IMG/VR virus record: IMGVR_UViG_3300012667_000136
Span: 1 to 63,212 of that record
Direction: 5' to 3' (one strand)
Length of the DNA: 63,212 bases
DNA from: a virus
Lineage: Duplodnaviria > Caudoviricetes
The notes beneath the pieces were generated by a model, which had not been told where the DNA came from, did no database searches, and saw only the letters and a program-made list of their open reading frames with translations. Below, piece by piece: positions 7,671 to 60,352 of the stretch. Both the position numbers and the translations under genes were made by a program. Position 1 is the first letter of the stretch, and each line of letters opens with the position of its first letter.

Positions 7671-8822
7671 TTAATGCTTTCTAAAAAAACTTAGTTCGCC
7701 GTTCCTCACAGCACTTTCAGTCATTTGTCTCTTATGACGCTCTACGCTATCTGTAAACTTGCCCATCATGCGTTCGCGATCTGCATCAATTTCTGCTTGA
7801 TTAGGACCTGCTGGTGATTTGCGACCTTTAAGTTTACTTTGTAGAAACCCTGGCTTTCCTTCGTCGCCTGCGTCTGCTGCCGCAGGCTTTGCTGTTGGCG
7901 CTGCTGCTGGTTTAGCAGCTGGTTTAGCAGCTGGTGCTGGAGCTGTTTGATTAGTTGTGTTCGGAACTCCGCCTTGAACTTTATCCCCAACTGGTGTTCC
8001 TGGAGTGTTTTTCATTGTAGCTGGATCAAACTTTGCTCCGGTGCTAACAGTCTGCTTGCCACCAGCTAGTTGATTATTAAAACTTCCAGCTTTAGCTGGT
8101 GCTGCTGCTGGTGCTTTTTGTTTCATTGCTGCGCTAACTTTAGGATCAGCTTTAAGCATTGTTACAAGTTCTGATTTTTGCTCAGGAGCTAACCCTTGAA
8201 CAGCTTTCTGTACTTGTGCGTATGCACTATCAGCTTTAGGATTTGCTGCTGCTGGCTCAGCTGCTGCCGGAGCTGCCGGAGCTGCCGCTGGCTTTGCTGT
8301 TGGCGCTGCTGCTGGTTCAGCAGGTGCTGCTGCATTTGGGTTACCTGGTTTAGCAGTATTAGTTTTGCTAACAGGAGCATTAGCCATAGTGTTAGGCTTT
8401 TCACCGCCTAGTTGATTAGCCATTGCACCCATTGCTGGTGAACTTGCTGCACCTGCTGCTGGCGCAGGAGCTGCCGAAGCTCCGGATGCTGCTTTTGTTC
8501 CGCTGTTTGCCGCAGTGTTCAATCTTCCAAATGCAGATTTAGGTTGTGCTGCTGGTGCCGGAGCACTGCCTGCTGCTGGTGCTTCACCTGCTGCTGGTTC
8601 TGCAGGAGCATCTGCTGCTGGCTCTTCTTCATCACCTGCAACTGTTTTCTTGCCGCTTTGGTAGCCTTTCTTAAAAGCACTGCCTAACCCTGCAACACCT
8701 CCAGCTACTGCACCAACTGCTTTAGCTGCACCGCCGGCAACTTTACCGAGCCCTGAACCGATGGCACTCAAAGGACCTTCATCTAGTTGTTCGTTTTCTA
8801 CTAATAATTCATGAATTTTCAT
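7671..8822 (-). CDS. Ala/Pro-rich putative internal head (virion) protein
   Basis: N-terminus MKIHELLVENEQLDEG carries L-x-E motifs like T4 prohead-protease sites, followed by low-complexity PAA repeats. Confidence 0.55.
   Translation of the reverse strand: MKIHELLVENEQLDEGPLSAIGSGLGKVAGGAAKAVGAVAGGVAGLGSAFKKGYQSGKKTVAGDEEEPAADAPAEPAAGEAPAAGSAPAPAAQPKSAFGRLNTAANSGTKAASGASAAPAPAAGAASSPAMGAMANQLGGEKPNTMANAPVSKTNTAKPGNPNAAAPAEPAAAPTAKPAAAPAAPAAAEPAAANPKADSAYAQVQKAVQGLAPEQKSELVTMLKADPKVSAAMKQKAPAAAPAKAGSFNNQLAGGKQTVSTGAKFDPATMKNTPGTPVGDKVQGGVPNTTNQTAPAPAAKPAAKPAAAPTAKPAAADAGDEGKPGFLQSKLKGRKSPAGPNQAEIDADRERMMGKFTDSVERHKRQMTESAVRNGELSFFRKH
7885..8317. repeat. 28-bp intragenic direct repeat (7885-7912, 8290-8317) and 12-bp tandem unit (7906-7935)
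   Basis: GGCTTTGCTGTTGGCGCTGCTGCTGGTT occurs twice (encodes PAAAPTAKP). GCTGGTTTAGCA is repeated 2.5 times. Confidence 0.85.
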
Positions 8823-8831
8823 TTTTAATCC

Positions 8832-10781
8832 TTATGCCATTGTTGGTTCAATTCGTCCGTTGCCTGCATCTCTACTAGGTGCTGCCGCAGCAGGTGCTCC
8901 GCCTGAATTCTTTTCTAGATATTTTAATAATCTCACTTTACGATCAACAGGCAAAGCTGCAATTAATTTTTTAACTTGTTCAATGTCCATAGGTGCTGCT
9001 GCATCTGCTGCCTTGGGAGAACTAGCAATCTTCATAGTCTTATAAACGCCGTCAACAACATTAGCTGCAACACCTTGCTGTGTTAGAAATGCTTTCAGTT
9101 CTTCGCTGTCAGTAGGAGCTCCGGCTTTTTGCCAAGCTGAGTTTAATTTGTCTGCTGTAACTTTTGTTGTAAGGTTCTTGCCCTTGGTAGCTGCCCAGTT
9201 CATTGCCTTGCCAGCTGCACCTTTAATTGCGTCTAACGGTCCTTCCATTAGGCGACCTTCACCTAACATCTTGTCATTCAATGTGCATACACGGTTGAAC
9301 ACCATGTAAACTTGACCTTCACTTAACGATTTAGATGTTCTGCTAATGCTTTCGCCTTTCATTGCTTTGAGCAATTCAGCAGCTCGATCTTTGTTAATCA
9401 TTGGACGAGGATGTGTTCCGTCGATAACTTGTTGCAAGTAATCGGCACTGTACTTGCCGGCAGCTTTACCTGCCGACGTTGCTGCATCAGCTGCTGCGCC
9501 CGCAGCTTGTCCGCTGTTTTGTGCTTGCCAGTCAAGAGCTTTTTGTGCGTCTTCTGGAGATATCTTGAATCTCACTCCACTATTGCCGCCTGCATCTACA
9601 ACACGCTGTAGATAATCACTACTCATGCCAGCACCGTATGGTTGGGATGTTGCAACATCAGCGGCACTATTAGCAGCAGCTTTAGTAAGTTCTTTTGCTG
9701 TTAGTCCAGTTGTTTTAATAATTTCTGCTTTCTCTGCAGGGTCTGCTGCTACAAATTCAGCAGCAGCCTTGGCTGTTGCCTTGGCATTTTCTGCTGCATC
9801 GGCAGTTGGCAATTGTAGTTGTCCCCTGAGATCCTGTGCATCGCCCATGGCTTTAAATGCTGCATCACTCTTTGCTGCATCACGAACTCCAGCCATTGCA
9901 TCGCTAGATACAGAACCACTACTAATTCCAGGAGTTGCCATTTGCCCATTGTTAGTCAAGTCGGCAAATGTCTTCATATCCATAGTCTTCAATGGTATGT
10001 CACCAGTGAATACTTTCCTACCAGTAGAGTCAAATACTTGTAGAGAATCTCCGCTAGAAGAAAACGTGTATCCTTTGTCGGGCGGAAACTTATTAAGAAT
10101 TCTATCTTGGAATGCTTGATCGGCAGCTAGACCCTGTTGAATGTCTGCTGGTACTTCGCCGCCACCTTCGGGTTTACCTTTTAGATAGTCGCCTAACTTG
10201 CTTGCACCATAGGCCATAGCGCCAGTCTTGCCGCCGGCATAGGCAGCGGAGCTAAATTTTTCACCTTGTAGCAGCTTGTCAGTCATCTTTAACAAGCCTA
10301 GAACAGCAGCGCCACCTAGTCCAGCACCACTAATACCAGCGGCTGCAATAAGTGCAGAATAGATCAATCCCTGTGCAATTGGATGTTCTTTGGCAAATGT
10401 ACGATATTTTTGAATTACTGTATTAATAGCGTTATCCGGACCACCTAACCCTGCTTCAATCTTAGCAACAACATCGTCGTATTTCTGATCAACAGCCTTA
10501 ATAGGACCACTATCTTGAATCTTTGTTTTTAAATCTTCCCAGGCTTTGTTTACTGCTTCGGCAGCATCCTTACCTTTACCTAATAATGTTCTATTACCGC
10601 CAGATGCTGTAGATTGTGTTTCGATTTCAGCAAACAAGCTCTGAATCTGATCAGCTGTTAGTGCTGCTTCTTTTAATTTAACGCCTGCACTCTCCCATAG
10701 AACCATAGTCCTTCTACTAGAGTAGTCGAGACCTTCATATAGGTATGTGTTTTTATTATTCGATATTTGTTGAATTCTCAT
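8832..10781 (-). CDS. Putative internal head/ejection protein, modular, with a hydrophobic Gly/Ala segment
   Basis: Late promoter upstream; L-x-E motifs (LYE, LKE, LSE, LME); internal repeat SSDYLQRVVD / SADYLQQVID. Confidence 0.5.
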   Translation of the reverse strand: MRIQQISNNKNTYLYEGLDYSSRRTMVLWESAGVKLKEAALTADQIQSLFAEIETQSTASGGNRTLLGKGKDAAEAVNKAWEDLKTKIQDSGPIKAVDQKYDDVVAKIEAGLGGPDNAINTVIQKYRTFAKEHPIAQGLIYSALIAAAGISGAGLGGAAVLGLLKMTDKLLQGEKFSSAAYAGGKTGAMAYGASKLGDYLKGKPEGGGEVPADIQQGLAADQAFQDRILNKFPPDKGYTFSSSGDSLQVFDSTGRKVFTGDIPLKTMDMKTFADLTNNGQMATPGISSGSVSSDAMAGVRDAAKSDAAFKAMGDAQDLRGQLQLPTADAAENAKATAKAAAEFVAADPAEKAEIIKTTGLTAKELTKAAANSAADVATSQPYGAGMSSDYLQRVVDAGGNSGVRFKISPEDAQKALDWQAQNSGQAAGAAADAATSAGKAAGKYSADYLQQVIDGTHPRPMINKDRAAELLKAMKGESISRTSKSLSEGQVYMVFNRVCTLNDKMLGEGRLMEGPLDAIKGAAGKAMNWAATKGKNLTTKVTADKLNSAWQKAGAPTDSEELKAFLTQQGVAANVVDGVYKTMKIASSPKAADAAAPMDIEQVKKLIAALPVDRKVRLLKYLEKNSGGAPAAAAPSRDAGNGRIEPTMA

Positions 10782-10803
10782 AGGGTTATTAAGATATATT
10801 TGT

Positions 10804-10810
10804 TATTTAT
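10804..10810 (-). promoter_or_regulatory. T4-late-type promoter (ATAAATA)
   Basis: Upstream of the ATG at 10781. Confidence 0.6.
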
Positions 10811-10814
10811 TGTG

Positions 10815-11325
10815 ATTACGAGCTAAAGCTCGTATTCGTTTTCGCTAACGCTCAACGAATTTTCTTTCTTCTTAACTATGAAGTAATGTATCTGCGAAGC
10901 AGTTTAAATATTATGTAGATTGTTCAGTCACACTTAACCCGAGCAGGGTTAAGATTAGCATTATGTGAGTTGCACAATACACTTAGCGTTAAAGCATTAC
11001 AGTGGCGGTCAGCCGGTACCACGAGCTTTGTCTTAATATCTGACGGTGGACTAATACACATACGCTAACATATGCACTAGTCTAAGGGTTTTTCTCCCTT
11101 CTTTTAGCCTTGTTACTTACAATATTACAAATCAAACCGGTTTTATGAAAGGCATATCCGATCGTCGTCCTGTAAAGGATAGTGATTTGCTACTCTTCGC
11201 CAACGTAGAGTTCCTTACCGTCACACATCAGAACGGATTTTGGGCACGATATAGTCGCCTGTGCGGGCTTTTTTGGCGATATTTTGCCTGGATTTGTTGA
11301 GCCTAACTGTGCCTGGCGACTGTGT
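10815..11325 (-). ncRNA. Candidate large structured non-coding RNA (~500 nt); alternatively a structured DNA origin
   Basis: Only long gene-free stretch in the window. It contains many hairpins, long-range helices and a possible pseudoknot, and its G-U wobbles favour the minus strand. Confidence 0.55.
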
Positions 11326-11332
11326 GTTTGTG

Positions 11333-11767
11333 TTATATTTTAGGTTTTTTGAGGATATGTGAGCCGTGAACTCGAACCTGTATGTGACCGTTGTACCAGT
11401 CATTAGATTCTAGAACTTTGTTTTTAAATTGTTCTCTTGCCTCGATGTAGCTGCATTCTGATTTAGTTGTGCAGTAAAATAGAATTTCTCTGGTGAAGTT
11501 TTCTTTGCCTAAGGCCTTAATATCTGCTGTTAGCGCATCGCTAGAACCATAATAGTCCTTCCAATCGCTTTCAATTTTGCCTCTGATTTTCTTCTTTTTC
11601 TTCTTGCCGTTTTTAAGTGTGACTGATTTGTATGTTGTTTTTGCGAATTTTGCTAGTTTTTTGCCTATGTACTTGCGTCCAGAGATAACGTTGGTGATAA
11701 GATAAACGAATCCAATGTATTCGTCCGAAATTTCGGTAACTTCTTTCTTCTTATAAAACCACGTCAT
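11333..11767 (-). CDS. Stand-alone GIY-YIG endonuclease (Seg-like catalytic domain)
   Basis: GFVYLITN..GRKYIGKK, WKDYYGSS, ENFTREIL, E in SYIEAREQ and terminal WYN. It has a poly-Lys insertion. Confidence 0.85.
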   Translation of the reverse strand: MTWFYKKKEVTEISDEYIGFVYLITNVISGRKYIGKKLAKFAKTTYKSVTLKNGKKKKKKIRGKIESDWKDYYGSSDALTADIKALGKENFTREILFYCTTKSECSYIEAREQFKNKVLESNDWYNGHIQVRVHGSHILKKPKI

Positions 11768-11997
11768 CCCGTAGTTAGCTTCTTCGGCCTACCCGGCCTG
11801 CCATTCCTGGCAATACGTCGTACTTCTCTTTTTTCTTGTATTTCTACTCGCCTAATGCTTGCCTCGTTGCGTATTTCTGATAACCAATATCGTGCCTTAA
11901 TGCCTGCCTCGTCTACCCCGGTGTATTCAAACCGGGTCTGCCATTTAAAATATTCCTGAAACGCATGGATCATTCGATCGTGTGAATCTGTACTCAA
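11764..11997 (-). CDS. Small basic nucleic-acid-binding protein (Hc1/histone H1-like pattern)
   Basis: F..G...AG.KAR..L.EI......R.EI.E pattern with an Arg/Lys tail (GRPGRPKK). Overlaps both neighbours by 4 bp. Confidence 0.5.
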   Translation of the reverse strand: MSTDSHDRMIHAFQEYFKWQTRFEYTGVDEAGIKARYWLSEIRNEASIRRVEIQEKREVRRIARNGRPGRPKKLTTG

Positions 11998-14785: not shown

Positions 14786-14814
14786 ATTATAACTTGTTAG
14801 GAGACAAAGATCAA
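14786..14814 (-). promoter_or_regulatory. Sigma70-type promoter TTGATC-N17-TATAAT upstream of gp47
   Basis: -35 at 14814-14809, exact 17-bp spacer, -10 at 14791-14786, then 6 nt to the ATG. Confidence 0.6.
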
Positions 14815-15680
14815 TCCCAATCCCCGCCACCTTCTCCGGAACTAACAGGCCCACTATAGTTGCTGCCGCCGCTGTTCTGTCTAGTCCAACTTGGGTTCAT
14901 TCCGTTCATTTCAAGAATGTCGTCTCGAATGTTTTGATTGCGCTTCTCAATGTTGATAATTCTAACGAATGAATTAGTGACAGCAGCAGTATAGTAAGCA
15001 AAAGGATTATCAGATTTGCTTTCATCGAATTGAAGTCCTATTTGAGTAAGTTGCAAGATAGCTTGCCCACGCATTTCGTCGTTGTAAGTATAACCGCGAA
15101 CGTTGCCTCGAGTTGCATATCTCTCACAGAGTTTTAAGAACATGCGAGCTAAATTGTTTGTCATCTTGCCGTGTTCTTTGTTAAACTCGCCAGTTAGTAA
15201 ATCGCCCTTCCAATGGCTCTTTCCTACCAACACAATGTTATCGTTATCGTCAAATTTAAAATGTTGGAAAGGTGGAAAGTTAACCTTCTCGTGACTATCG
15301 GCTGTATTTTTTAGAGTTTTCTTGCGCCCTGGTGCAAGTGGTACATGATCAAATGTCATGATCCTAAAAACAACGTCAGTTTTCTTAATAGTTTTATAAT
15401 CTACTTCGAACTCTTTAGCAGGCAATTTTTTACCGCCAGTTAATACGGCAGTTTCGTGTGCTTGTTTGCTAAGTTTAATAGCTCGATTTCGTTTAGCTTC
15501 TGCAATAGTTCTAATGTTAATTTTCCCTAAATTGGGCAATATTAGATCATAGTCAGCATATCTTGGGTCAGTATAAGAGCAATAGGTATTCTTGCTCAGG
15601 TGAATTTCTTTTAATAAGTCCTTGTTTGTCAAGTATTTTATTTTAGGTACTGTAGGTGTCATCTCCGGTGGTTTCTCCAT
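14811..15680 (-). CDS. gp55: Late-transcription sigma factor, T4 gp55 family
   Basis: KYLTNKDLL, MFLKLCERYA..NVRGYTYNDEM, FDESKSDNPFAYYT...NSFVRIINIEKR. It is adjacent to gp47/gp46, matching the T4-like order. Confidence 0.88.
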   Translation of the reverse strand: MEKPPEMTPTVPKIKYLTNKDLLKEIHLSKNTYCSYTDPRYADYDLILPNLGKINIRTIAEAKRNRAIKLSKQAHETAVLTGGKKLPAKEFEVDYKTIKKTDVVFRIMTFDHVPLAPGRKKTLKNTADSHEKVNFPPFQHFKFDDNDNIVLVGKSHWKGDLLTGEFNKEHGKMTNNLARMFLKLCERYATRGNVRGYTYNDEMRGQAILQLTQIGLQFDESKSDNPFAYYTAAVTNSFVRIINIEKRNQNIRDDILEMNGMNPSWTRQNSGGSNYSGPVSSGEGGGDWD

Positions 15681-24994: not shown

Positions 24995-27900
24995 ATGGCA
25001 CAAGAAAATTTCCCAGACAGTCAATTACCGATCAGAAGAACCGTAGAATTATTACCGCAAGTTTTTCAAACTGAGGCAAATAAAAAGTTTTTATCGGCGG
25101 TACTTGACCCGCTAGTTCAACCGGGCGTATTACAGAAAACTGTAGGATATGTCGGTCGTCGCTACGGAAAAACTTATAATGCTAGTGACATCTATTTGGA
25201 CACTGACGAAACTTTAAGAAGTCGTTATCAACTAGAACCGGGTGTTGTTATTACTCAAAATAACACAGTTACTAATTTCTACGATTATCTTGATTTTAAG
25301 AATCAAATTAAATTCTTTGGAAATAAAGAAGAGTTTGATGCAACAATAACAGCACAAGAACACTATTCCTGGAATCCCCCAATTGATTGGGATAAGTTCA
25401 TTAACTACCGCGAATACTATTGGGTACCCGACGGCCCTCCTGCGGTGAAGATTTTAGGACAAGATCAAAATATTGTTAGCACCTACAAGATAGGTCTAGG
25501 AGTCGGCAGTGTCTTCTTGTTTACTCCTGACGGTCTAACAAATAACCCTGCGTTGACTCTGTATAGAGGTCAAACATATAAGTTCCAAGTAAATGTTCCA
25601 GGTAATGGTATTACTTTTAAAACAGCAATTGATACAGGTACGTTGTTGTACAATCCGTTAGTTGCATATTCTAAAGGGCAACTTACTGTTTTTAACAACC
25701 AACTATGGAGAGCATTAGATAATATACCGCTCGGCGACGGAAGTACAATCGACTTAGCTACTCAAGATTGGGAATTTGTAGATGACCTTCAAATGACAAC
25801 CGTGTTGAATTATGATAAAGGAGTCACTAATAATGGCGCCGAAACAGGCACTATAACATTTGAAGTTCCATTAGATGCACCTGATGTATTGTTCTATCAG
25901 AGTGCTACTGATCCTAACAGATTTGGCAGATTTATAATTTCTAATATCGAGACTAATACTAAAATTAATGTTGAGAAAGAGATTATTGGAAAAGAAACAT
26001 ACACCAGCAGTAACGGTGTTGAGTTATCTAACGGCATGGTTATCTATTTTATCGGATTAGTAACACCTGCCAAATATGCTGATAACAACACTAAGTGGTT
26101 AGTTGAAGGTGTAGGCACACAGATAACGTTAACTAAGTTTACAGATCTAATTGTATCTGAAAATTTAAATAACACAGCAGCAGAAGTTTTGTTTGACAAC
26201 GGAGGATTCGACAGCCAACCATACGACGATGCTGCGGCATATCCAGCATCTAAAGATTATATCACGATTAACAAATCTAGTATAGATTCTAATCCGTGGA
26301 GTCGTTATAACCGTTGGTTCCACAGATCAACATTAGATTATTCTCATTCGTTTAACGGTAGTAATTTTGAAGCACCTGAATCAACAAGAGCTAAACGACC
26401 TGTAATCGAGTTTAAACCTAATCTACAATTGTTTAATCACGGTAGTACTGCAAAACAAACAGTTGATTATGTTGATGATTTTACCACAGATGTATTTTCA
26501 GTTGTAGAAGGCAGTCTAGGATATATTGTTGACGGTGAAAGTTTATTTGACGGCGCACGAGTGCTAGTCACAGCAGATACAGATAGTCTTACGAATAATC
26601 AAATTTACGTTGTTAACTTTATCAAGCACAACAATGTAACACAAATTAATTTAAAGAAATCTGATGATTCTGAATCTCTGCTAGGAGAATGTGTTCTTGT
26701 TAGACGAGGCAATAACAATAAAGGATCAATGTTCCACTTTAACGGAACAATGTGGGTTAAGAGCCAGGCAAAGACAGCTATTAACCAACCGCCTATGTTT
26801 GACATGTTTGACAATAACGGTGTTAGTTTTTCTGATGCTGATACCTATCCTGTAAGTTCGTTTGTTGGAACTAAGGTACTAAGCTACAAGCTCGGTTCGA
26901 GTGTTGTGGATTCTGAATTAGGTTTTAGTTTATCTTACCTTAACATCAATAATGTAGGCGATATTCAATTTGAATTTGACTTAGATGCTGATTCGTTTAA
27001 TTACAAAATACAACAGTCGGTATACACAAAAAATATCTCTACAGGATTTTTAAAGTTTAACGGCATTGAAACATACAACAACGGTTGGACAGTCTTAGAC
27101 ACTGACCTAACTCAGCCTATTATTGATTCGATAGCAGTAACTTCTGCATCGAATGTAATAACATCTACCGCAGTTGACTGGGATAATGTAACTGACTCAC
27201 AAATTAAGAAAATAGTGTTTTATGTTAATGGAGTAGTAACAAAGAAGACCTGGACTAGATTAAATGGCACATTTACATTTAGCAGCAACTTTGCCGAAGG
27301 CGATGTTGTTACTATTAAGATATTTGCTGACTTAGATCCTGTAACAGGATACTATGAGATTCCGTTAGGGCTTGAAAAGAATCCACTAAATGAAAAAATT
27401 AAAACGTTCACATTGGGCCAAGCAGCAGATCATGTGTTGTCTGGTGTTGAATTAATTGATAACTTTTCTGGAATTTATCCAGGCGCTAGTAACCTTAGAG
27501 ATATCTCAGGGTACGAGTCGAAGTCAAAGCGATTCTTAAAACACAGCAACATAGCACCGATCGCTATGGTACTATTGTGTGATAAAGAAGTTAACATTGT
27601 AAAATCTATTCAATATGCTAAGAAGGCATACACAGATTTTAAAAATACATTTATTGATTTAGCATATACACAATACTACGATCAAAATAGTATTGATTAT
27701 GTAGATACTATCCTAGAAGAAATAAGCAAGACACAAAATTCTAGTCGCCCATTTTCCGAATCGGATATGATCGGCAGTGGAGCATACACTGAATTAAACT
27801 ACGTGGTAGAAGACGAAGGCATCAAGACATTTGCATTATCGGAGAAGTTTGATCTAGAAACTCTAAGTTCTCGAGCTGTGTATGTCTACTACAATGACAC

Positions 27901-30900
27901 ACAGTTGTTGAATGGAGTTGATTACGAATTTAATTCTACATTTGGATTTGTTAAATTATTAATTACATTGTCCGAGAATGATACTATTCGCATTCGTGAA
28001 TACATATCAACTTCGTCAAACTTTATTCCACCAACACCTACAAAATTAGGGTTATATAGAAAATATACACCTATGAAGTTTTTGGATACAACATATGTCG
28101 AGCCAAAGGAAGTAATACAAGGTCACGACGGAAGTATCACAGTTGCGTACGGTGACTTCAGAGATGATGTATTATTAGAATTAGAAAAACGTATCTACAA
28201 TAATATTAAACAACAGTACGACGAATCAATTTTTGATAACGATGCAGTATTAGGTGGTTATTATGGTAATGCCGAGTACAATAAAACAGTAGTAGATGAT
28301 ATCATTGCTCCTGAATTTTTAAAGTGGATTTCTGATACAAATATTGATTATGTAAACAATACGTATTTTGATAGCGAGAATAGTTTTACCTATACTTACT
28401 CTAATATGGTAGATCCTACAAGTACTAAAAATCTACCAGGTTACTGGAGAGGAGTTTACAAGTGGTTCTACGATACTGACAGACCACATCGTTGCCCTTG
28501 GGAAATGTTAGGGTTCTCAGAGAAGCCAACTTGGTGGGAAAGCGAGTACGGCCCAGCACCTTACACAAGTAATAACTTAATACTGTGGGAAGACCTACGA
28601 GACGGTATTATTCGCCAAGGTGAAAGAGCAGGAATTCGAGACAGATACAAGCGTCCGTCTATAATGAAACATATTCCTGTAGACGAAGATGGAAATTTAA
28701 TCAGTCCATTAGATTCTAATCTTGCAGGCAATTTTACATTAACTAACAATAAAGGTTTATTTGTATTAGGTGATCAAGGCCCTGTTGAAGCTGCATGGCG
28801 TTTGAGTTCAGAGTGGCCATTTGCAACAGTGTTGGCGTTATGTTTGTTAAAGCCGTTCGAGTACATCACTGACAACTTCAACAAGTCTGAAACTATTCTG
28901 AATAATGTCGGACAAACTGTTAATAAAAATTCTAACGAATTCTTCACAGTTGATGATTTAGTTTACAACTCGTCAGCAGCATCGGGATTAGTATCTTACG
29001 TTGTAAATTATTTAAAGAGTAAAACAATTCCGGTTGAAACCTTAAGTAACAAATTATCTAATATTGATGTTAGGTTAACAAACCGTTTGTCTGGATTTGT
29101 TGATCAAACTCAACAAAAGTATGTATTGGACAGTAAAAATCCTAAGTCCACAACAAGTAGTATTTTTATCCCACAAGAAAATTACAACATTATTTTCAAT
29201 GTAAGCTCACCAATTTACTCGTTAGCATATAGTGGTGTGATTATTGAGAAGACTAATCAAGGCTACAAGATCACTGGTTATGATAGTAAAGATCCGTATT
29301 TTACATATTATAAACCAGTCATTAGTCAAACTGATCCTTTAATTTCAGTTGGCGGTGTTAGTGAGAATTTCTTAACATGGACCGCTAATAAGTTTTATGG
29401 AAACGGCGTAATTGTAAAAGATGGACAAACTTATTACAGAAGTATAAAGAGTCACACAAGTGGCGATTCCTTTGATTTAACAGCATGGAAGCAATTACCT
29501 TCATTGCCATTAACTAATGCTGTCGAGGCGTTAAGAAGACGCCGATTTAATAAATTAAAAACTTCTAGACTGAACTACGGTACAATTATGACTTCGATTC
29601 AAGAAGTTGTAGATTTTATGCTAGGTTATCAAGAATACTTAATTAGTGTAGGATTTGTTTTTGACGGGTACGACTCTGCAACACAAACAACTTACGATTG
29701 GTTCACTTCTGTAAAAGAATTTATGTTTTGGACAAAGCATAATTGGAGTGACGGATCCCTATTAACATTGAGCCCTAACTCTCAGAAAGTTGAAGTTCAA
29801 GTGGCACTAGGAGTTGCTGACAGTTTCTTAGATAGTTTTTATGATTATCAAATTTTACAAGACGACGGAACACCGTTACGTCCAGAATTCATTGAAGTAA
29901 GTAGAGACTATAAAACATTGTCTCTGTCAACAATTAATACAAACCGTGGTATCTATTTCTTGAGAGCAAACTTTGTTCTCAAAGAACATGTGGTAATATT
30001 TGATGACAAAACAGTGTTCAACGATATATTATACGATAAGCCAACCGGATATCGTCAAGAACGTATCAAAGCTAGAGGCTTCCGCACAGTTGATTGGGAC
30101 GGTGACTACACTAGCCCGGGCTTCTTGTTTGACAATGTTAATATCCAGGTATGGCAACCATTTACTGATTATAAGTTAGGTGATATTGTAGCTTATAAGA
30201 GTTACTACTGGACAAGCAAGAGTAATCAATTAGGCACAGAGTCGTTCAATGATACAATCTGGACAAAGTTAGATTCAACACCAACTAAAGGACTTCTGTC
30301 AAACTTCGATTATAGGATTAATCAGTTTGAAGATTATTATGAAGTTGACACAGACGGTGTTGGCTCAAGTCAGCGCGACCTAGCTAGACATGCTATTGGA
30401 TACCAACCAAGAGAATACTTACAAGGTTTAGCCGAAGACGAAATTACACAATTTAGACTATATCAAGGTTTCATTAAAGAAAAAGGAACTAACAACGCCA
30501 TTACTAAAGTTTTTGATAAACTTAGTAAGACACAAGATGACGGAGTTGTGCTTAACGAAGAGTGGGCATTTAAAGTCGGCGAATTCGGCGGAGTTGATCA
30601 ACTTAGAGAAATAGAGTTTGAGATTTCAAAAGATGATCTACAAGTTAACCCGCAACCTACATTAATCGTTGAATCAAAGAGTTCGATTATTTCTGATCAG
30701 AATTTACGAATTGATCCGTCGAGATTTACAATTAGCCCTGCTCAGTTTACTACTGATATTACACCGACGGCGCTATTTGATAGTCCGTCACGTTCGGCAG
30801 GATATGTGCATCTCGACGATGTTGAGTTTATTGTAAAGACTAGAGATGATATTTTAGATATTAATATTTTAACAGTAAACGAAAATGATCACTTTTGGGT

Positions 30901-33900
30901 AACATTTGATTCGTACAAATGGACAGTGTTGCGATATAACGAAACATTATCCTTAAGGATTATTTCGTTAGTAAAGTCAGGTAATGATGTAACAATCCAA
31001 TTAAACAGAACTCATAATTTTGTTATTGGTGACATTATCGGCATTACTAAAGTTTTTAACTTAACAGGTTTCTACAAAATAACATCTGTAGACAGCACAA
31101 CCGTTACTGTATCTTCCACAGGAGATGATCCTGCGATTGAAGATAGTACATCAGCAGTGGTTGGAACTTTTACTGAAGCAAGATTTAATACTTATCAAGG
31201 AGTAGACTACCAGAGTACAGCCTTGCTGGCAACTGGATCTAAGTTATGGATTGACTCTACTGAGACAGGAACTTGGGAAGTTGTTGAAAAGATTAAACAG
31301 TATCAGACATATGATTTAGTAGATTATGGTATTACTGTGCCGGTAAGAACAGGTACTGCGGTTGTATACCTTGAACCTTATAAACAGGTAGCAACCTCGT
31401 TGCCTGCATCGAACTATGTAATGATATATTCGGATAGAACTAATGTTAACCAAGCATTGGGCCTAAAACAAATTATTTCAGCTCCATCTGGATTTGAATA
31501 TGCAGTTGACGGAGTATTTGGAAAAGTGTTGGCAGTAAGTCCGGACTACAAATGGTTGGCAATATCAACACCTACTGCATCGGCAGTTCCTAATCCATAT
31601 ATGGGAGAGTTAACTACTCGTAGTTATTTGGCCGGTGAAGTTGTATTGTACAACGGAAAACTATGGAAGGCTAAAATAAACACTTTACCGTCTGATGGTA
31701 GTTCGATCACATTGAATACAGAAGACTGGGAACCAGCAACACTTGTTGAAGCAAACTCAACAAGCCGCGGCACTGGTGTTGTTAATCAAGGTATGGTGTC
31801 ATTATACACTTACGTTAATGATCAATGGGAAAACGTTTACAACATTGTAAGTCCGCGTCAAGCAACAGATGAGAGATTCGGTAGTGCAGTAACATTTGGA
31901 GTAAATGGTTCTACCTATTACATGGCAGTATCGGCAATAGGATCATTATGCGATCCAGCAATAGGTTATGCTACTGGTAAAGGCAGAGTATATCTGTACT
32001 ATTACAATGGCACTAACTGGACACATCACGAAAACCCAAATTATATGGGAGTCTACGATCCGTCTCCGTCTGTAGAATATCCAGCAGGCAGTGTTGTATG
32101 GTCTAATGATAGTCTATGGCAAGCGTTGATCGATACAAACGGCGACGGCAGCACGTTGACTCTTGAGTCAACAGAGTGGGTACAGCTAGATGATGTAACG
32201 ACTGAGAATTCTCTACCGTCGAACGTAGCAATAGAAGACGACGGGTCGACATTAGCCGCAGGTTTATTGGATCCTACTCAACTTGCAGAGTTGATTAAGG
32301 ACGGCGACAATTTTGGTTATAGTCTAACAATGTCTAGAGATGCTAGCATCCTAGTCGTTGGTGCTCCTAACAGTGACGGTAGATATATCCCTAACTTTAG
32401 AGGACTATGGAATCCTTACCAAGAATACAGAGCAGGAGATGCTGTAAAATACCAAGACAACTATTATGTACTCGATGATACAGTATCTACAACTGTAAGC
32501 ATTAACGAAGAACCAACAAGCGGAAGCCCTTGGGTATATGAGAGTAATGACGATTTTACAACAACTGGTAAGGTATTTGTATATCAACGAAATAGCAATG
32601 GAATATTTGCATTAACTCAAACTATCACAAATCAGTCATTAGAAAGTATTAATGACATTGGATCGTTGGGATCAATAGCGTCTGGTGACAACTTTGGTAC
32701 CTCTATTGATATAGATGCCGCCGGCACAACGCTAATTGTTAGTAGCCCTACCGCGGATATACAAAAACAAAATCAAGGCGCTGTATACGTCTTTAAACGC
32801 AGCGTAGGTGCATTAGAGTTTAGATTAGTTCAGAAGCTACAAAGCTACGAAAACTATACTAATGAATATTTTGGTTCTAGCATATCTATTAGTGCTGCAA
32901 CAGAACGAGTTGTTATTGGCGCTAAAAATGCAGGGTACAGCCTTCCAACAGGATTTGAAAATGGTACTACTTTTGATAGACGTAGAACATCGTTTGCAGA
33001 TCCAGGTGGGTTCCCAGGCCAAGTTTATGTATATGAAAGAAAAGATCAAGGATACATCTTAGCTGAAAAGCTACAAGCAGACTTTAGAGATTATGAATCT
33101 TTCGGAGCATCTGTTGATTGTACAAACTCTGTCATTGTAGTAGGATCACCTAATTATCAACTTGAAGGAGCACCGATCGGTAAAATCAGATTGTTTAAGA
33201 AAACTGCAAACAAGGATAGCATTAATACTATCCGAGCTCAAGGTGAACAAGTTGATTTAAATTCTTTGAAGAATATTGAATTGTATGATCCACAAAAGAA
33301 TATAAAGATTTCTGACATTGATGTAGTTGATCATTTTAAATTAAAAATTCTTAGCATTGCAGAGCAGGATATTAAATTTAAAACAATTTATGATCCTGCA
33401 ACATATATGTTAGCAACTGACGATCAGACAATTGATGCAGGACAGGCATGGTTCGAAGATCATGTAGGCGAAGTATGGTGGGACCTAAGTGCAGTAAAGT
33501 TTTTAAATGCTGAACAAGGTGATCTATCTTATAAAGTGGGTAACTGGAATACACAGGTAGAAGGATCGTCTGTCGATGTCTACGAATGGGTTGAAACTCC
33601 TTTGCTACCATCCGAGTGGAGTATTTTAGCCGATACTACTCCGGGACTAGTTGAAGGAATCAGCGGACAACCAAAGTTTGCTGATGATACCGTCTATAAT
33701 ACAAAAGTATTATACAATCCTACAACAGGTCTAGCAACTAGTACCCTATATTATTTCTGGGTTAAGAATAAAACAATATTACCTGCCCAGAAAGACAGAA
33801 GAGTTTCAGTCTCTACGATTGCGTCATCTATTGCAAATCCAGTTGGAACAGGTATACCATTTGTTGCGCTAGTTGGTACTAACCAGTTAGCATTTTACAA

Positions 33901-36900
33901 TTTCTCTTCAGTAGTTAGTAACGATTCTGTATTAGTGAATATTGAATACAATAAAGATGATATCGAAGCTAACCCAGTACATAGAGAATATCAGTTATTA
34001 ACAGAAGGCGTTGCAGATAATATCCCTTCGGAGTTTTTAGAGAAGAAATGGATTGACAGTCTTGTAGGATTTGACGAGGCAGGAAATACTGTTCCTGATT
34101 TTAACTTATCATTGAAGCAACGATACGGCTTGAGTTTTAGACCAAGACAAACAATGTTTGTTAACAGAGCCAAGGCGTTGAAAATTGTTATAGATAACAT
34201 TAATACAGTGTTGGCATTGCGCCCATTTGTTGATACTATCAATTTTGAAAATCTAGCTGCTAAAGATTCTATTCCTAGTTCATTATTAAATGAGTATGAT
34301 TTAGAAGTAGACAACTATATCGATCTTGATCAAGTTGGTACTGTAAAAGTAAAACAGGCTGTTTTCTCAGTAAACATTATCAACGGTGAAATAGATACAA
34401 TTGATATTATTGATCCTGGATTCGGTTATAGAACAGCACCGTACGTTCAAATCCAAGGTACTGGAAAGAATGCCAAGGCCTCTATAACATTAGACACTCA
34501 AGGACGAGTATCGTCTATCACTGTAACTAACCGTGGTAAGAAGTACACGTCTGCAATCGTTAAGATTAGACCGTTCTCTGTATTAGTTAAAAACGATATA
34601 AGTGATAAAGGATTGTGGAGCATCTACTCCTGGGATCAACAACGTAAGATTTTCTATCGTAGTAAAGCCCAAGGTTACGATACAACAGCATATTGGGAAT
34701 ACACTGATTGGTGGGCGTCTGGATTCAGTTCATTATCTAGAATAACAACTGAACTTGATAGTTTCTACAAAGAACCAACTGTTTCTTTAGAACCAGGAAC
34801 ACTACTGCGAATCAAGGAATATTCCAACGGCGGCTGGGCAGTTCTAGAACGTACTGCTAATGGCGCAGGCAATTTGTTGTCTAATTACAATTTAGTTGGT
34901 AGACAAAATGGTACCATTGTAATTAAAGAATCTTTGTACAATGCATTAACTACTGCACTAGGATATGACAATGTTGGTTACTATGATGTAGCATTGTACG
35001 ACCTGCAACCTATTAGAGAATTGAGAAATATTCTATTGGCAGCAAAAGAAAATATATTCATTGATGATTTAGCTGTCGAATGGAACAAATTATTCTTCTC
35101 TTCTGTGCGATATGCATTCTCTGAGCAGCAGTATGTTGATTGGGCATTTAAAACAAGCTTCTTAAATGCTATTCACAATGTTGGAGATCTAGATCAACGT
35201 CCTAATTATAAAAACGACAATTTAGAAAGTTTCAGACAATACATCGAGGAAGTAAAGCCATATAGAACAACTATTAGAGAATACACAAGTCGTTATACCG
35301 AAAACGAAAACTATCAAGGTGGTACAATTGACTTTGATCTACCACCGGCGTATTCAGTAAGAGATGGAAAAATACTGCCAGTTAGTCAGAACTATAATAG
35401 ATTTAACGAATACCCTTGGAAATGGTGGGCAGATAACAACGGTTATTCTATAACATCAATTAACGTAGCATACAGTGGTGCAAATTATACCTCTCCGCCA
35501 ACAGTATTGATAAGTGGCAACGGAACTGGTGCAACTGCAACAGCGTTTATATCTAGTGGAAAAGTATCCGGTATCCGAGTTGATACTCCTGGATCCGGGT
35601 ATACTCAGATTCCTACAGTAGTGTTAGTAGGCGGTAACGGTACTTCTCAAAGTATTGCAAAAGCTTCTGCCATTATGGGAGACAGCGTAGTTAGAACATT
35701 TGATATAACTATGAAGTTCGACAGGATTAGCAAAGCTGGTGAATATCGAGCGTTTACACAAACTCAACAATTTGTAGCTACCGGGTATAGTGCTATCTTT
35801 AATTTAAATTATGCACCTACAAGAGATAAGACAAAAATCCAAGTCGTTAAAAATAGTGAGATTATTTTAAACAACGAATACGAGATTGATCTGTATCGTG
35901 ATTCAACTGACGGATTCTCCTTGCTAAAAGGAAAGTTAAGATTTTTAGCAGCACCTAAGGCAGGAGATGTAATAGTTGTTAGCTACGATAAAAACGATGA
36001 ATACCTAGATGCAGTTAATAGAATTAACAAGTATTACGCACCGTCGTCTGGAATGAAAGGAAACGAAGTTGGACAGTTAATGACAGGTATCGACTTTGGT
36101 GGTGTACAAGTTCAAGGTACTACATTTGATGTAACAGGCGGATGGGATGCGTTACCGTGGTTTACTGACAATTGGGATAGCGTTGAAAGCAATTCCGATT
36201 TCCATTATATTGCAGATGGAAGCACAACATATGTAGTATTGCCTTATATTCCTGAAAACAATGCTGTAATTTCAATCTATCTAAAACGAGTTACTGATTC
36301 GCGAGCAACTAGAATCGATGATCCTTATTTCTTAGAATACGACGGCATTACAGTTCAACCTAACGGAAGAACAACACCGTTGGCAAATGCATTAATGCCA
36401 TCTTTTATCGGTGATGGATCAACTAACGTTGTTCAATTGCACAACGCAACAACAGATGAAAATTACATTACAGGCGGTTTAGAAGTTGGTGATACACTAA
36501 TTTTCCGCAATATCGATAGCGATGGATCAGTAACTATCACAGACATTAATTTGTTAGATACTCGTATTAGCGGCGGAACATTAGCTAATGTTAGTAATGC
36601 ATATGTTACTGCAACTGGATTAACTCCAGAAGAAATTGTAATCGATGGTGATAAGTTTGTTAGTCCCGACCAAGTGCCAGCACCTGAAGAAAACTTACCC
36701 GGACAAGTGTTGGATAGTTTAAGCGTAAAAGTTTTCACAACTACTAGCCCTGGTTCAGCACCACTACAGTCTAAGGTTATTGTAAGTGACGGTGAAACAA
36801 GAATATTCGATATCGGATTAAGAGTTCTAGAATCTAAATCAGTTATGGTATATGTTGACAAAGTTAAGAAAGAAATTGATCTAGATTATATTATTAATTT

Positions 36901-59435: not shown

Positions 59436-59660
59436 TTAAGCCTCCTTTTTTGCAACAGATTCTAAGAATGTGTTGAGTTTGTTATAGACTTTACCCACGG
59501 CTTCTAATTCTGCTGCTTTAAACGCACCGCGCTGTGTTGCTACTTCTACAATGCTTTTCAATGCAGCGAGATCTGTTAGATTCAAATCTGGACCTTGTGC
59601 TGGAGCCGATTGTGTTTGTGGTTGTTCAGCTGGTGCTGTATCTTTGACTTCGTCCGTCAT
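59436..59660 (-). CDS. Hypothetical protein
   Basis: AAGGAG RBS; contains the motif VATQRGAFKAAELEAVG. Confidence 0.7.
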   Translation of the reverse strand: MTDEVKDTAPAEQPQTQSAPAQGPDLNLTDLAALKSIVEVATQRGAFKAAELEAVGKVYNKLNTFLESVAKKEA

Positions 59661-59932: not shown

Positions 59933-59939
59933 GGTATGA

Positions 59940-60351: not shown

Positions 60352-60352
60352 A

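What the first reader, a model, noticed from the sequence alone, without database searches (positions are those of the whole stretch)
10815..11325. Candidate ~500-nt ornate non-coding RNA with long-range helices and a pseudoknot
Seen: this is the only large gene-free stretch in 63 kb, and it is packed with complementary segments. Hairpins: 10817-10823/10828-10834; 10834-10840/10854-10860; a perfect 8-bp stem at 10933-10940/10946-10953; 11049-11082 (long, with several G-U pairs only on the minus strand); 11084-11088/11096-11100. A 7-bp long-range helix (11217-11223/11041-11047) closes a ~170-nt domain. At the 5' end two helices cross (11315-11321/11253-11259 and 11309-11313/11243-11247), which is a pseudoknot topology. 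I recognise no tRNA, tmRNA or RNase P hallmarks. Inference: a large structured RNA co-transcribed with the upstream nuclease gene, comparable in size to ornate phage RNAs but of no family I can name.
Basis: partly seen in the sequence, partly recalled or inferred. Interest (0 to 1): 0.85.

Follow-up and report, generated by a model that had tools for sequence, protein, structure and literature searches.

The report
Twin-word knotted giant-phage RNA gene
The gene-free stretch encodes a real, intricately folded non-coding RNA of about 470 bases from an uncultured giant freshwater phage; only its first third was catalogued before, and what it does, including who reads a short word that it shows twice, is still unknown.

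Summary
The stretch is a real structured RNA gene on the minus strand, about window 11290 to 10818.

- **Known part.** Its first third is the catalogued orphan motif Polynucleobacter-1 (Rfam RF01718, 67.5 bits, cut-off 37).
- **New part.** The remaining ~330 nt are in no Rfam family. They are as well conserved and carry covariation-supported helices and two pseudoknots, which replicate on an independent metagenome set.
All five local hairpins hold. The 7-bp long-range helix and the 5' pseudoknot do not.
- **Twin word.** One 7-letter word occurs twice about 50 nt apart. It was identical in 51 of 51 aligned relatives, although it changed at least 23 times. I found no complementary partner in the RNA, its flanks or the window.
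- **Context.** A small nuclease gene lies upstream in 126 of 126 loci with enough flank (GIY-YIG in 123, PD-(D/E)XK in 3). That gene has a separate history, with a recombination breakpoint at the junction, and its family occurs in 489 cultured phages without the RNA. The next gene downstream is on the opposite strand in 25 of 41 loci, so the RNA is not a 5' leader.

Function is unknown. My best guess is a stand-alone scaffold that shows two identical words to a two-sided reader. This scan found the same family before on other DNA.

The parts
10818..11290 (-). Whole conserved structured RNA (about 470 nt). The 5' limit is approximate and the 3' limit is the end of the terminal hairpin.
   Evidence: Conservation among 60 relatives starts near 11290-11300 and runs to the terminal hairpin. 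Fold z is -4.28 on the minus strand only. Indel lengths are mostly not multiples of three (614+268 against 86) and there is no 3-base periodicity.
11125..11269 (-). 5' domain, equal to the Rfam RF01718 Polynucleobacter-1 match. Helices: P1 11260-11264/11244-11248; P4 11183-11188/11129-11134; P5; P6 11158-11163/11135-11140.
   Evidence: cmscan gives 67.5 bits (cut-off 37), E 3.6e-12, model positions 1-141. P1, P4 and P6 are 97-99% paired with compensatory changes.
11084..11100 (-). Hairpin H7
Evidence: It is paired in 66% of cells on the MAFFT alignment, with 2 of 5 pairs compensatory; the alignment is poor there.
11049..11082 (-). Long hairpin H8. Its 6-nt loop (11063-11068) forms pseudoknot PK1.
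   Evidence: 12 of 14 pairs show changes on both sides; 89.5% of cells are paired on A2.
10983..10988 (-). 3' strand of pseudoknot PK1, which pairs with the H8 loop at 11063-11068
   Evidence: 97% paired, with 5 of 6 pairs compensatory, on A1, A2 and the independent set A3.
11008..11044 (-). Pseudoknot helix H9 (11040-11044 with 11008-11012), which crosses H10 (11018-11022/11002-11006) and H11 (11025-11029/10991-10995)
   Evidence: H9 is 99% paired with 3 of 5 pairs compensatory. H11 is 94-96% paired with 4 to 5 of 5 compensatory. H10 is 98% paired.
10960..10970 (-). Box 1: a constant 4-letter lead (10967-10970) plus the 7-letter word (10960-10966; ACAUAAU here)
   Evidence: The word is identical to box 2 in 51 of 51 relatives. 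Normalised mutual information with box 2 is 1.0; the best other column reaches at most 0.53.
10933..10953 (-). Hairpin H12, between the two boxes
   Evidence: 88-90% paired, with 2 of 8 pairs compensatory. Its 3' strand also fits 11045-11047, which is unexplained.
10910..10920 (-). Box 2: a constant 4-letter lead (10917-10920) plus the same 7-letter word (10910-10916)
10892..10902 (-). Small hairpin H13
   Evidence: The stem letters vary while pairing is kept in the alignment blocks. Only 62% of cells pair on MAFFT because the stem length varies.
10834..10860 (-). Hairpin Ha, with an inner 2-bp stem and a GNNA loop (10844-10851)
   Evidence: 7 of 7 outer pairs and 2 of 2 inner pairs are compensatory.
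10818..10833 (-). 3'-terminal hairpin Hb
   Evidence: 4 of 5 pairs are compensatory. A U-rich tail (5 or more U in 10 nt) follows in only 20 of 51 relatives, and not in the window.
10804..10810 (-). T4-late-promoter-like ATAAATA, 29 nt before the start of the 649-aa gene. It lies outside the RNA.
   Evidence: Of 9 copies in the window, 5 lie 29-56 nt before ORF starts. The motif is present within 45 nt after Hb in 36 of 51 relatives. A gp55-like late sigma factor gene lies at 14811-15680.
11333..11767 (-). Upstream neighbour: a 144-aa GIY-YIG nuclease gene (SegE-like)
   Evidence: Pfam PF19835 at 3.6e-33. It is a separate evolutionary module.
8832..10781 (-). Downstream neighbour: a 649-aa protein with no known family. 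It is not a constant neighbour.
   Evidence: No significant Pfam or PHROG match. It lies downstream of the RNA in 1 of 42 pattern-found viral loci and 5 of 45 metagenome loci.

Best explanation
**Shown.** The stretch is a gene for a stand-alone, roughly 470-nt, doubly pseudoknotted non-coding RNA of uncultured giant T4-like freshwater phages. It is the full-length form of the orphan Polynucleobacter-1 motif.

**Inferred.**
- It is made as the tail of the early/middle recombination gene cluster (late sigma factor gene, SbcD, SbcC, a small protein, a nuclease) and ends at a terminal hairpin, before the late promoter of the next gene.
- It acts in trans as a rigid scaffold. The scaffold displays two copies of one 7-10-letter single-stranded word, about 50 nt apart, to a two-sided reader.
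- The two boxes must match each other, so they always change together.
- The neighbouring nuclease gene is a separately inherited, exchangeable cassette.

My odds: real full-length RNA of this family about 0.9; the display-scaffold mechanism about 0.3.
For: **Identity**
- RF01718 scores 67.5 bits against a cut-off of 37.
- The fold is strand-specific.

**Structure**
- On a structure-blind MAFFT alignment of 51 relatives, 95 pairs are 85.7% paired against 74.1% in shuffles and 34-46% when slid. 64 pairs change on both sides. Covariation is 0.352 against 0.156, with 0 of 500 shuffles as high.
- The 3' core alone is 93.3% paired, covariation 0.477 against 0.188.
- Both pseudoknots replicate on 67 metagenome sequences that were not used to derive them: 97.8% paired, covariation 0.391 against 0.172.

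**One RNA, not two**
- The 5' domain and the 3' core co-occur in 54 of 54 viral loci and 58 of 58 metagenome loci that are not cut by a contig end.

**Non-coding**
- Indel lengths are mostly not multiples of three, and there is no codon periodicity.

**Twin word**
- Identical in 51 of 51 relatives, with 10 different words.
- Identical in 80 of 90 viral loci by regular expression; several of the other 10 are cut by a contig end.
- Identical in 57 of 58 metagenome loci.
- At least 23 word changes on a tree built without the box columns. The single positions change 13, 8, 4 and 5 times, always in both boxes.

**No partner in cis**
- Searches found none.

**Not a leader**
- The first ORF of 80 aa or more downstream is on the opposite strand in 25 of 41 loci.
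- A late-promoter-like motif sits between the RNA and the next gene.

**Nuclease is a separate module**
- Nucleotide identity to the window switches at about 11330. L140 and L135 have the nuclease gene at 88-97% in most bins (72% in the last bin for L135) but the RNA at 30-86%. L122 and L121 have the gene at 56-78% but the RNA at 86-97%.
- A PD-(D/E)XK nuclease replaces GIY-YIG in 3 loci.
- An extra ORF separates the nuclease gene from the RNA in 9 loci.
- The GIY-YIG family is in 489 cultured phage records, while blastn finds the RNA in none.
- Melnitz-3 has the nuclease at 52% identity but no RNA by either model.

**Expression (weak)**
- Contigs from RNA libraries of 3 of the 4 laid runs, each from a different study, cover parts of the RNA.
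Against: - No reader was found, so the display mechanism is inference only.
- A nuclease gene lies upstream in 79 of 79 viral and 47 of 47 metagenome loci with enough flank. This could mean a functional tie that I cannot see.
- Transcript ends and strand are not shown. All four runs were contigs, and DNA carry-over in RNA libraries is not excluded.
- The terminal hairpin is a poor intrinsic terminator in the window and in 31 of 51 relatives. Read-through into the next gene is therefore possible where that gene is on the same strand.
- Two alternative pairings compete with H12: 11045-11047 with 10937-10939, which pairs in 62 of 62 sequences, and 11031-11036 with 10949-10954. These hint at a conformational switch rather than a rigid scaffold.
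- The tree was a quick search on a short alignment, so 23 may overcount independent changes.
Confidence: 0.45

Rival explanations
1. Nuclease-RNA system: the RNA is a cofactor, guide, inhibitor or substrate of the small nuclease encoded just upstream. The twin boxes are its two binding or cutting sites.
For: - A small nuclease gene precedes the RNA on the same strand in 126 of 126 loci with enough flank.
- The spacing is too short for a separate promoter outside the gene: median 41 nt, minimum 14.
- The 144-aa protein is little more than the catalytic domain (PF19835 covers residues 3-129).
- When GIY-YIG is absent, another nuclease fold fills the slot (PF24608).
Against: - The gene and the RNA have different histories, with a breakpoint at their junction.
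- Loci with the unrelated PD-(D/E)XK nuclease carry an ordinary word: L018 has the same word as many GIY-YIG loci.
- In 28 of the 51 relatives whose nuclease I could extract, no protein column tracks word positions 1 or 2. The best normalised mutual information is 0.47 and 0.56; this is a weak test.
- 9 loci have another ORF in between.
- The nuclease family occurs in 489 phage records without the RNA.
- The PD-(D/E)XK protein is 51% identical to a PA5oct protein annotated as a RusA-like resolvase. That gene lies near SbcCD in a phage without this RNA.
Confidence: 0.13
2. 3'-UTR or operon-end element: the RNA stays attached to the mRNA of the upstream recombination genes. There it controls their stability, 3' processing or termination, possibly by switching between two folds.
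For: - There is no room for a promoter between the nuclease stop codon and the RNA.
- The RNA always has a same-strand gene upstream.
- Competing pairings around H12 are kept in relatives.
- One metatranscriptome contig joins the RNA, a relative's nuclease gene and the gene before it (record 16). A contig does not prove a single transcript.
Against: - About 470 nt with two pseudoknots, and twin words that change 23 times, is far more than known 3' stabilisers need.
- The upstream gene can be swapped or separated from the RNA without change to the RNA.
- Nothing in the flanks pairs with the words: 31 own-word complements against 29.2 for control words.
Confidence: 0.15
3. Cis-regulatory 5' leader or riboswitch of the downstream gene. 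This is the guess attached to Polynucleobacter-1 in 2010.
For: - The table of the 2010 paper marks the motif as cis-regulatory 'y' and switch '?' (I saw passages of PMC2864571 only).
- In the window and in 28 of 33 loci found through the 649-aa protein, that gene follows on the same strand.
- The terminal hairpin is a weak terminator here.
Against: - In loci found without reference to the downstream gene, the 649-aa gene follows in 1 of 42 viral and 5 of 45 metagenome loci. The first ORF is on the opposite strand in 25 of 41.
- 15 of 51 homologues of the 649-aa protein sit in other contexts without the RNA.
- A late-promoter-like motif lies between the RNA and the start codon.
Confidence: 0.05
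4. The signal is at DNA level: the stretch is an origin, a recombination site or a homing target. The twin words are protein-binding DNA repeats, and the RNA folds are incidental.
For: - It lies beside the recombination nuclease genes.
- It has direct repeats about 50 bp apart.
- The neighbouring nuclease cassette is exchanged, with a breakpoint at the edge of the stretch.
Against: - The fold is strand-specific (z -4.28 against -0.90).
- G-U pairs are tolerated on the minus strand only.
- There are hundreds of compensatory changes in 19 helices, including pseudoknots.
- The box spacing varies from 47 to 59 nt with no helical phasing.
Confidence: 0.04

Closest known systems
Polynucleobacter-1 RNA motif (Rfam RF01718; Weinberg et al. 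2010, PMC2864571; I saw only text passages and the table row)
   Same: Window 11125-11269 matches the whole 141-position model at 67.5 bits. The habitat label is also the same: the paper's table says fresh water/estuary, and the run records say freshwater metagenomes.
   Different: The catalogued motif is only the first third. In every locus not cut by a contig end, it continues into a roughly 330-nt unmodelled part with two pseudoknots and the twin boxes (54 of 54 and 58 of 58). The assumed cis-regulatory role does not fit the gene context. The carriers are giant-phage contigs of up to about 346 kb.
Large ornate bacterial and phage RNAs such as GOLLD, ROOL, HEARO and OLE (names recalled; their Rfam models were part of the scan)
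   Same: They share the size class (hundreds of nt), many covarying helices and pseudoknots, a phage or mobile context, and an unknown function.
   Different: There is no sequence or structure match: no hit at E up to 10 in the region. None of them, as far as I recall, has two identical words that evolve in step.
Sponge or decoy RNAs with repeated protein-binding motifs (CsrB/RsmZ type) and type III antitoxin RNAs with repeats (recalled, not tested)
   Same: One short motif is repeated on a structured RNA, as if read by a multimeric protein. 34 of the 80 viral words begin with GGA.
   Different: There are only two copies. The word itself differs between close relatives (10 words), which a conserved host protein would not tolerate. 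The RNA lies after a DNA-nuclease-type gene, not before an RNA-cutting toxin gene.
Free-standing homing endonuclease genes of T-even phages (Seg family, GIY-YIG; recalled) as a model for the neighbouring gene
   Same: The neighbour matches the SegE-type GIY-YIG domain. It sits between conserved genes and is exchanged as a cassette with sharp identity breaks at its borders.
   Different: No empty site was seen: 0 of 126 loci lack a nuclease. No DNA-binding domain was recognised. Cleavage was not tested.

Membership tests
Rfam RF01718 Polynucleobacter-1 | Covariance-model score at or above the curated gathering score (37 bits), over the whole model | tested here: met
   67.5 bits, E 3.6e-12, model positions 1-141 of 141, minus strand 11125-11269
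Rfam RF01718 Polynucleobacter-1 | The consensus helices are kept by compensatory change in relatives | tested here: met
   P1 is 97.3%, P4 99.3% and P6 99.3% paired, with 4 of 5, 5 of 6 and 3 of 6 pairs changed on both sides. P2 (78%) and P3 (61%) are weaker on the MAFFT alignment.
Rfam RF01718 Polynucleobacter-1 | Lies in the 5' UTR of a conserved downstream gene (the presumed cis-regulatory role) | tested here: not met
   The first downstream ORF is on the opposite strand in 25 of 41 loci. The 649-aa gene follows in 1 of 42 and 5 of 45 loci found independently of it. This is a presumed role, not a defining sequence feature, so membership stands.
Rfam RF01718 Polynucleobacter-1 | A self-contained motif of about 141 nt | tested here: not met
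   It is always followed by the 3' core where the contig allows: 54 of 54 and 58 of 58. The family model is therefore a fragment of the real RNA.
Other catalogued large RNAs (tmRNA, RNase P, group I/II introns, GOLLD, ROOL, HEARO and the rest of Rfam 15) | A covariance-model match | tested here: not met
   There was no other match at gathering score in the window. In 10600-11500 at E up to 10, only two sub-threshold chance hits appeared (17.7 bits against a cut-off of 33; 15.4 against 66). ARAGORN found no tRNA or tmRNA.
Guide or partner RNA of the adjacent nuclease (RNA-guided nuclease systems) | The RNA and the protein are inherited together and co-vary | tested here: not met
   There is a breakpoint at the junction, with opposite identity patterns in L140/L135 and L122/L121. 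The nuclease fold is swapped in 3 loci. No protein column tracks the word, in a test on 28 of 51 proteins.
Guide or partner RNA of the adjacent nuclease (RNA-guided nuclease systems) | Physical binding of the RNA to the protein, or an effect of the RNA on cleavage | not testable with these tools
   This needs biochemistry.
Intrinsic terminator (for hairpin Hb) | A G+C-rich stem followed by a U run | tested here: inconclusive
   The stem is conserved. A tail with 5 or more U in 10 nt follows in 20 of 51 relatives, and the window has only 3 U. The consensus scan found no minus-strand terminator.

The most novel reading that the evidence does not exclude
The RNA is a new kind of programmable two-handed adaptor. 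Its knotted body holds two identical, freely re-writable 7-10-letter words at a fixed distance, so that it can seize two copies of one target. The target could be a nucleic acid, such as a tRNA, mRNA or DNA site elsewhere in the phage or host, or a co-evolving protein dimer. The word would be the specificity determinant that phage lineages re-tune; it changed at least 23 times, always in both boxes. The exchangeable nuclease cassette next door may act on whatever the RNA captures.
Probability: 0.15. Interest if true: 0.88.

Novelty: new variant of a known kind. Interest (0 to 1): 0.62.

Why it matters
- **An orphan motif is only a fragment.** A motif that has sat in Rfam since 2010 as a presumed 141-nt cis-regulator turns out to be the first third of a much larger RNA. 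That RNA is doubly pseudoknotted and carried by giant freshwater and marine phages, and its gene context rules out the presumed role.
- **The in-step change is rare and strict.** Two boxes stayed identical in every aligned relative through at least 23 changes, with no partner in cis. This points to an unknown two-sided reader and gives a clean handle for experiments: mutate one box against both.
- **A worked example of adjacency.** The RNA always sits next to a nuclease gene, yet the two have different histories.
- **No function is shown yet.** The immediate value is a better family model, a defined structure and testable hypotheses.

Tried and rejected
Not kept in relatives.
- **Cis partner for the twin word.**
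  - A complement scan over the alignment found only a word-independent site near 11131 (37 own-word hits against 33 for control words) and a local site before box 1 in about 20 of 51 relatives.
  - Mutual information with all other columns reached at most 0.29 and 0.53 for positions 1 and 2.
- **Trans partner nearby.** The own-word complement in 521 kb of flanks occurred 31 times against 29.2 for control words, and the word itself 35 times against 41.7. In the window there were 5 matches against 4.7 expected, and two of these are the boxes themselves.
No protein column tracked the word, in a test on 28 of 51 proteins.
- **Mini-ORFs ending at the boxes.** The word reads as a sense codon followed by UAA or UGA, but the upstream frame is broken by indels that are not multiples of three.
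- **Cultured phages.**
  - blastn of the RNA against 50,697 phage records found no match. blastn could miss divergent forms such as L156.
  - Melnitz-3 gave no hit with model R1 or with RF01718. Those two calls had no positive control of their own, but the models do hit the window.
  - PA5oct gave a 17.1-bit R1 hit that lacks the whole central core, so I rejected it. Phosso gave nothing. Rfam found nothing in the PA5oct or Phosso loci.
- **Cellular genomes.** R1 run on 100 of those 120 gave only two short partial matches (20 and 17.3 bits). The scan is therefore uninformative, not evidence of absence.
- **Relatives of the window's genome.** The tool does not draw relatives for virus records.
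- **Chance pattern hits.** 62 of the 119 pattern-found viral loci have neither domain. 20 of them that I checked with Rfam have no RF01718.
- **Sequencing runs.** All four laid runs were contigs, so they give no ends, strand or expression level. The near-absence of cover over 10300-10787 means nothing, because the runs were found with 10700-11800.
- **Literature.** 'Polynucleobacter-1' occurs in 1 paper and 'RF01718' in 3; two of the three appeared in the search listing only and, by title, are genome reports. Searching 'phage' + 'structured RNA' + 'covariation' + 'GIY-YIG' returned 0. The supplements of the 2010 paper describe the motif's gene context, but I could not see them.
Full report
**Where the window comes from.** The window is a 63,212-base virus record, estimated to be about 18% complete. 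It carries T4-like structural and replication genes:
- portal, baseplate hub and baseplate wedge proteins;
- a gp55-like late sigma factor at 14811-15680;
- SbcD- and SbcC-like nucleases.

The nearest cultured relatives by SbcC are jumbo phages, at about 48% identity: Sinorhizobium phage Phosso and Pseudomonas phage PA5oct. Relatives of the finding sit on contigs of up to about 346 kb.

**The observation.** Between the 144-aa GIY-YIG gene (11333-11767, minus strand; Pfam PF19835, 3.6e-33) and a 649-aa ORF (8832-10781, minus) lie 551 bases with no ORF of 100 aa or more.
- The minus strand folds at -140.5 kcal/mol, z -4.28, and 0 of 100 shuffles fold as well.
- The plus strand has z -0.90, and 20 of 100 shuffles fold as well.
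- The stretch is not coding. Among 51 relatives, indel lengths are mostly not multiples of three (614 and 268 against 86), and variability shows no 3-base period (0.258, 0.216, 0.218).

**The known part.** Rfam's only match in the whole window at gathering score is RF01718, Polynucleobacter-1. It lies at 11125-11269 on the minus strand and scores 67.5 bits against a cut-off of 37, over model positions 1-141. The source paper lists the motif as a likely RNA that is likely cis-regulatory, from Burkholderiales and fresh water or estuary (PMC2864571; I saw the table row and text passages only). Nothing else in Rfam 15 matches the stretch at E up to 10, apart from two chance sub-threshold hits. ARAGORN finds no tRNA or tmRNA.

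**The new part.** blastn of the stretch against 171 fetched viral loci showed that the whole ~510 nt is conserved, at 93% down to about 67% identity. This includes about 330 nt that lie 3' of the Rfam match. The best conserved blocks are 10983-11032 and 10903-10942, both outside the Rfam motif.

I aligned 51 non-redundant full-length relatives with MAFFT (alignment A1). I read long-range pairs from mutual information and wrote an 18-helix model by coordinates. On this structure-blind alignment the tool splits the model's 95 pairs into 19 helices:

| Measure | Model | Shuffled | Partner slid |
|---|---|---|---|
| Cells paired | 85.7% | 74.1% | 34-46% |
| Covariation score | 0.352 | 0.156 (0 of 500 as high) | 0.06-0.13 |

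64 of the 95 pairs change on both sides.

A second alignment of the 3' core alone (A2, 47 sequences) gives 93.3% paired and covariation 0.477 against 0.188. The core holds:
- hairpin H8 (11049-11082), whose loop pairs with 10983-10988 (pseudoknot PK1);
- helix H9 (11040-11044 with 11008-11012), which crosses H10 and H11 (a second pseudoknot).

Covariance models cannot encode pseudoknots. I therefore aligned 67 independently fetched metagenome sequences to my nested model R1 and counted PK1 and H9 on that alignment. They are 97.8% paired (84.2% shuffled, 24-48% slid), with covariation 0.391 against 0.172 and 0 of 500 shuffles as high.

All five local hairpins are real (Hb, Ha, H12, H8, H7).
- The 7-bp long-range helix pairs in only 12 to 15 of 51 relatives at three positions and has almost no compensatory change.
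- The 5' pseudoknot uses bases that most relatives lack.

**One RNA, not two.**
- Among 119 viral loci found with a pattern from the Rfam part, 57 have the 5' domain and 54 also have the 3' core. Of the other three, two are cut by a contig end and one is a 43-nt fragment.
- The 62 pattern hits with neither domain are chance matches. R1 finds nothing in them, and 20 of them that I checked with Rfam have no RF01718.
- Among 118 metagenome loci found with a pattern from the 3' part, 67 have the core and 58 also have the 5' domain. All nine others start at a contig end.

So RF01718 is a fragment of a larger RNA.

**The twin word.** Two boxes lie about 50 nt apart (spacing 47-59 nt), one on each side of hairpin H12. 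Each has a constant 4-letter lead followed by a 7-letter word, which is ACAUAAU in the window.
- The two words are identical in 51 of 51 aligned relatives, across 10 different words.
- They are identical in 80 of 90 viral loci by regular expression; several of the other 10 are cut by a contig end.
- They are identical in 57 of 58 metagenome loci.
- On a tree built without the box columns, the word changes at least 23 times. Its four variable positions change 13, 8, 4 and 5 times, always in both boxes. That tree came from a quick search, so the count may be inflated.
- Each variable position shares all its information with its twin. It shares at most 0.29 (position 1) and 0.53 (position 2) with any other column.

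I found nothing that pairs with the word:
- No complementary site in the RNA follows it.
- The own-word complement is not enriched in 521 kb of flanks (31 against 29.2 for control words).
- It is not enriched in the window either (5 matches against 4.7 expected, two of them the boxes themselves).

**Gene context: upstream.** A small nuclease gene precedes the RNA on the same strand in every locus with enough flank.

| Set | Loci with enough flank | GIY-YIG adjacent | GIY-YIG with an extra ORF between | PD-(D/E)XK (PF24608) |
|---|---|---|---|---|
| Viral | 79 | 73 | 4 | 2 |
| Metagenome | 47 | 41 | 5 | 1 |

**Gene context: the nuclease is a separate module.**
- L140 and L135 share the nuclease gene with the window at 88-97% nucleotide identity in most bins (72% in the last bin for L135), but the RNA at only 30-86%.
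- L122 and L121 show the reverse: 56-78% for the gene and 86-97% for the RNA. The switch lies at about 11330.
- The nuclease family occurs in 489 cultured phage records, mostly cyanophages, while blastn finds the RNA in none of 50,697 records.
- The closest cultured case is Methylophilales phage Melnitz-3, with the nuclease at 52% identity. It has no RNA by R1 or RF01718.
- The PD-(D/E)XK substitute is 51% identical to a PA5oct protein annotated as a RusA-like resolvase. That gene lies near SbcCD in a phage without this RNA.

I read the nuclease as an exchangeable cassette in a recombination gene cluster. It could be a homing-type gene or a repair nuclease. I do not read it as the RNA's partner, although the 126 of 126 adjacency keeps that rival alive.

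**Gene context: downstream.**
- In loci found without reference to the downstream gene, the 649-aa gene follows in 1 of 42 viral and 5 of 45 metagenome loci. The first ORF of 80 aa or more is on the opposite strand in 25 of 41.
- 16 of the 51 loci with a homologue of the 649-aa protein showed no RNA. In 15 of these the protein sits in another context. The sixteenth, L156, is described under 'What remains open'.
- In the window, an ATAAATA motif lies 29 nt before the 649-aa start. Five of the nine copies in the window lie 29-56 nt before ORF starts. It follows the RNA in 36 of 51 relatives, and the phage encodes a gp55-like late sigma factor.

The RNA therefore sits at the end of an early/middle gene cluster, before a late promoter, and is not a 5' leader. 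Its terminal hairpin has a U-rich tail in only 20 of 51 relatives, and not in the window, so termination there is inferred and not shown.

**Expression.** Twenty of the 24 listed public runs hold part of the stretch, and 14 of those 20 are recorded as RNA, most of them labelled freshwater. I laid four runs from four different studies. Contigs of three cover parts of the RNA, for example 10922-11078 with one differing letter, and 10981-11305. These are contigs, so they give no strand, ends or level, and DNA carry-over is possible. This is a weak hint only.

**Mechanism.** Shown: a conserved, strand-specific, pseudoknotted RNA structure; two identical words that change in step; no partner for them in cis; independence from the downstream gene; a history separate from the upstream gene.

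Inferred: a stand-alone trans-acting scaffold that offers two identical single-stranded words to a two-sided reader, either a protein dimer or two copies of one nucleic acid. I put this at about 0.3. The rivals are a nuclease partner, a 3'-UTR element or switch, a cis leader, and a DNA-level element.

**What remains open.**
- Competing pairings around H12, kept in relatives, leave room for a conformational switch.
- L156 is a divergent variant in the same slot. It escapes both models, yet by eye it still shows two copies of one word with the same leads. The family is therefore wider than my counts.

**Earlier notes of this scan.** After I had found the Rfam match, the extension and the twin boxes, I looked up earlier notes. 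Other agents had described the same family on at least nine other genomes. They reached the same main readings: the first third is RF01718, the RNA is knotted, the twin word changes in step, and the nuclease is probably a neighbour. This window is one more member. My tests above are independent of those notes.

**Literature.** 'Polynucleobacter-1' occurs in one paper of the library. 'RF01718' occurs in three; two appeared in the search listing only and, by title, are genome reports. No paper combines phage, structured RNA, covariation and GIY-YIG. I found no published description of the 3' extension or the twin word. The library lacks most subscription journals.

Noticed in passing
L156:2403-3000 (+): This is a divergent variant of the RNA in the same slot (SbcC, GIY-YIG, a 584-nt gap, then a homologue of the 649-aa gene). 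nhmmer, model R1 and RF01718 all miss it. By eye it still has two copies of one 7-letter word with the same 4-letter leads, a hairpin between them, and Ha/Hb-like hairpins followed by ATAAATA.
   Followed up: partly
L018:3963-4484, L045:8819-9385, L394 (upstream of the RNA): In three loci a PD-(D/E)XK nuclease (Pfam PF24608, E about 1e-29) occupies the slot that GIY-YIG holds elsewhere. It is 51% identical to a PA5oct protein annotated as a RusA-like resolvase. This is a non-orthologous swap of a small nuclease next to the same RNA.
   Followed up: partly
window 11300-11800 compared with L140, L135, L122, L121: The GIY-YIG gene is far more similar to some relatives (88-97% nucleotide identity in most bins) than both of its flanks are (about 60-80%), and the pattern is reversed in others. 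This suggests recent exchange of the nuclease cassette alone, as expected of a mobile homing-type gene.
   Followed up: partly
window 11045-11047 with 10937-10939; 11031-11036 with 10949-10954: Two extra pairings compete with hairpin H12. One column of each co-varies with the H12 pair it would replace (62 of 62 sequences paired, with 5 compensatory, on the independent set). This could be a base triple or a second conformation; it is unexplained.
   Followed up: partly
window 6516, 6544, 10810, 38710, 45166: ATAAATA motifs lie 29-56 nt before the starts of five ORFs. They are likely T4-type late promoters, in keeping with the gp55-like sigma factor gene at 14811-15680.
   Followed up: partly
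window 11764-11997 (-): This 77-aa ORF overlaps the start of the GIY-YIG gene and has a basic GRP-rich tail. It has no Pfam or PHROG family. A homologue was found upstream in 18 of the 40 metagenome loci with enough flank.
   Followed up: partly
window 7671-10781 (-): Two adjacent proteins (649 aa and 383 aa) have long Ala/Pro-rich low-complexity stretches and no known family. They lie at the head of a late structural gene block.
   Followed up: no
window 24995-38713 (+): A single ORF of 4572 aa lies among the baseplate and tail genes.
   Followed up: no
window 59436-59967 and 60352-60911: Two more gaps of over 500 nt have no ORF of 100 aa or more. The whole-window Rfam scan found nothing there.
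   Followed up: no
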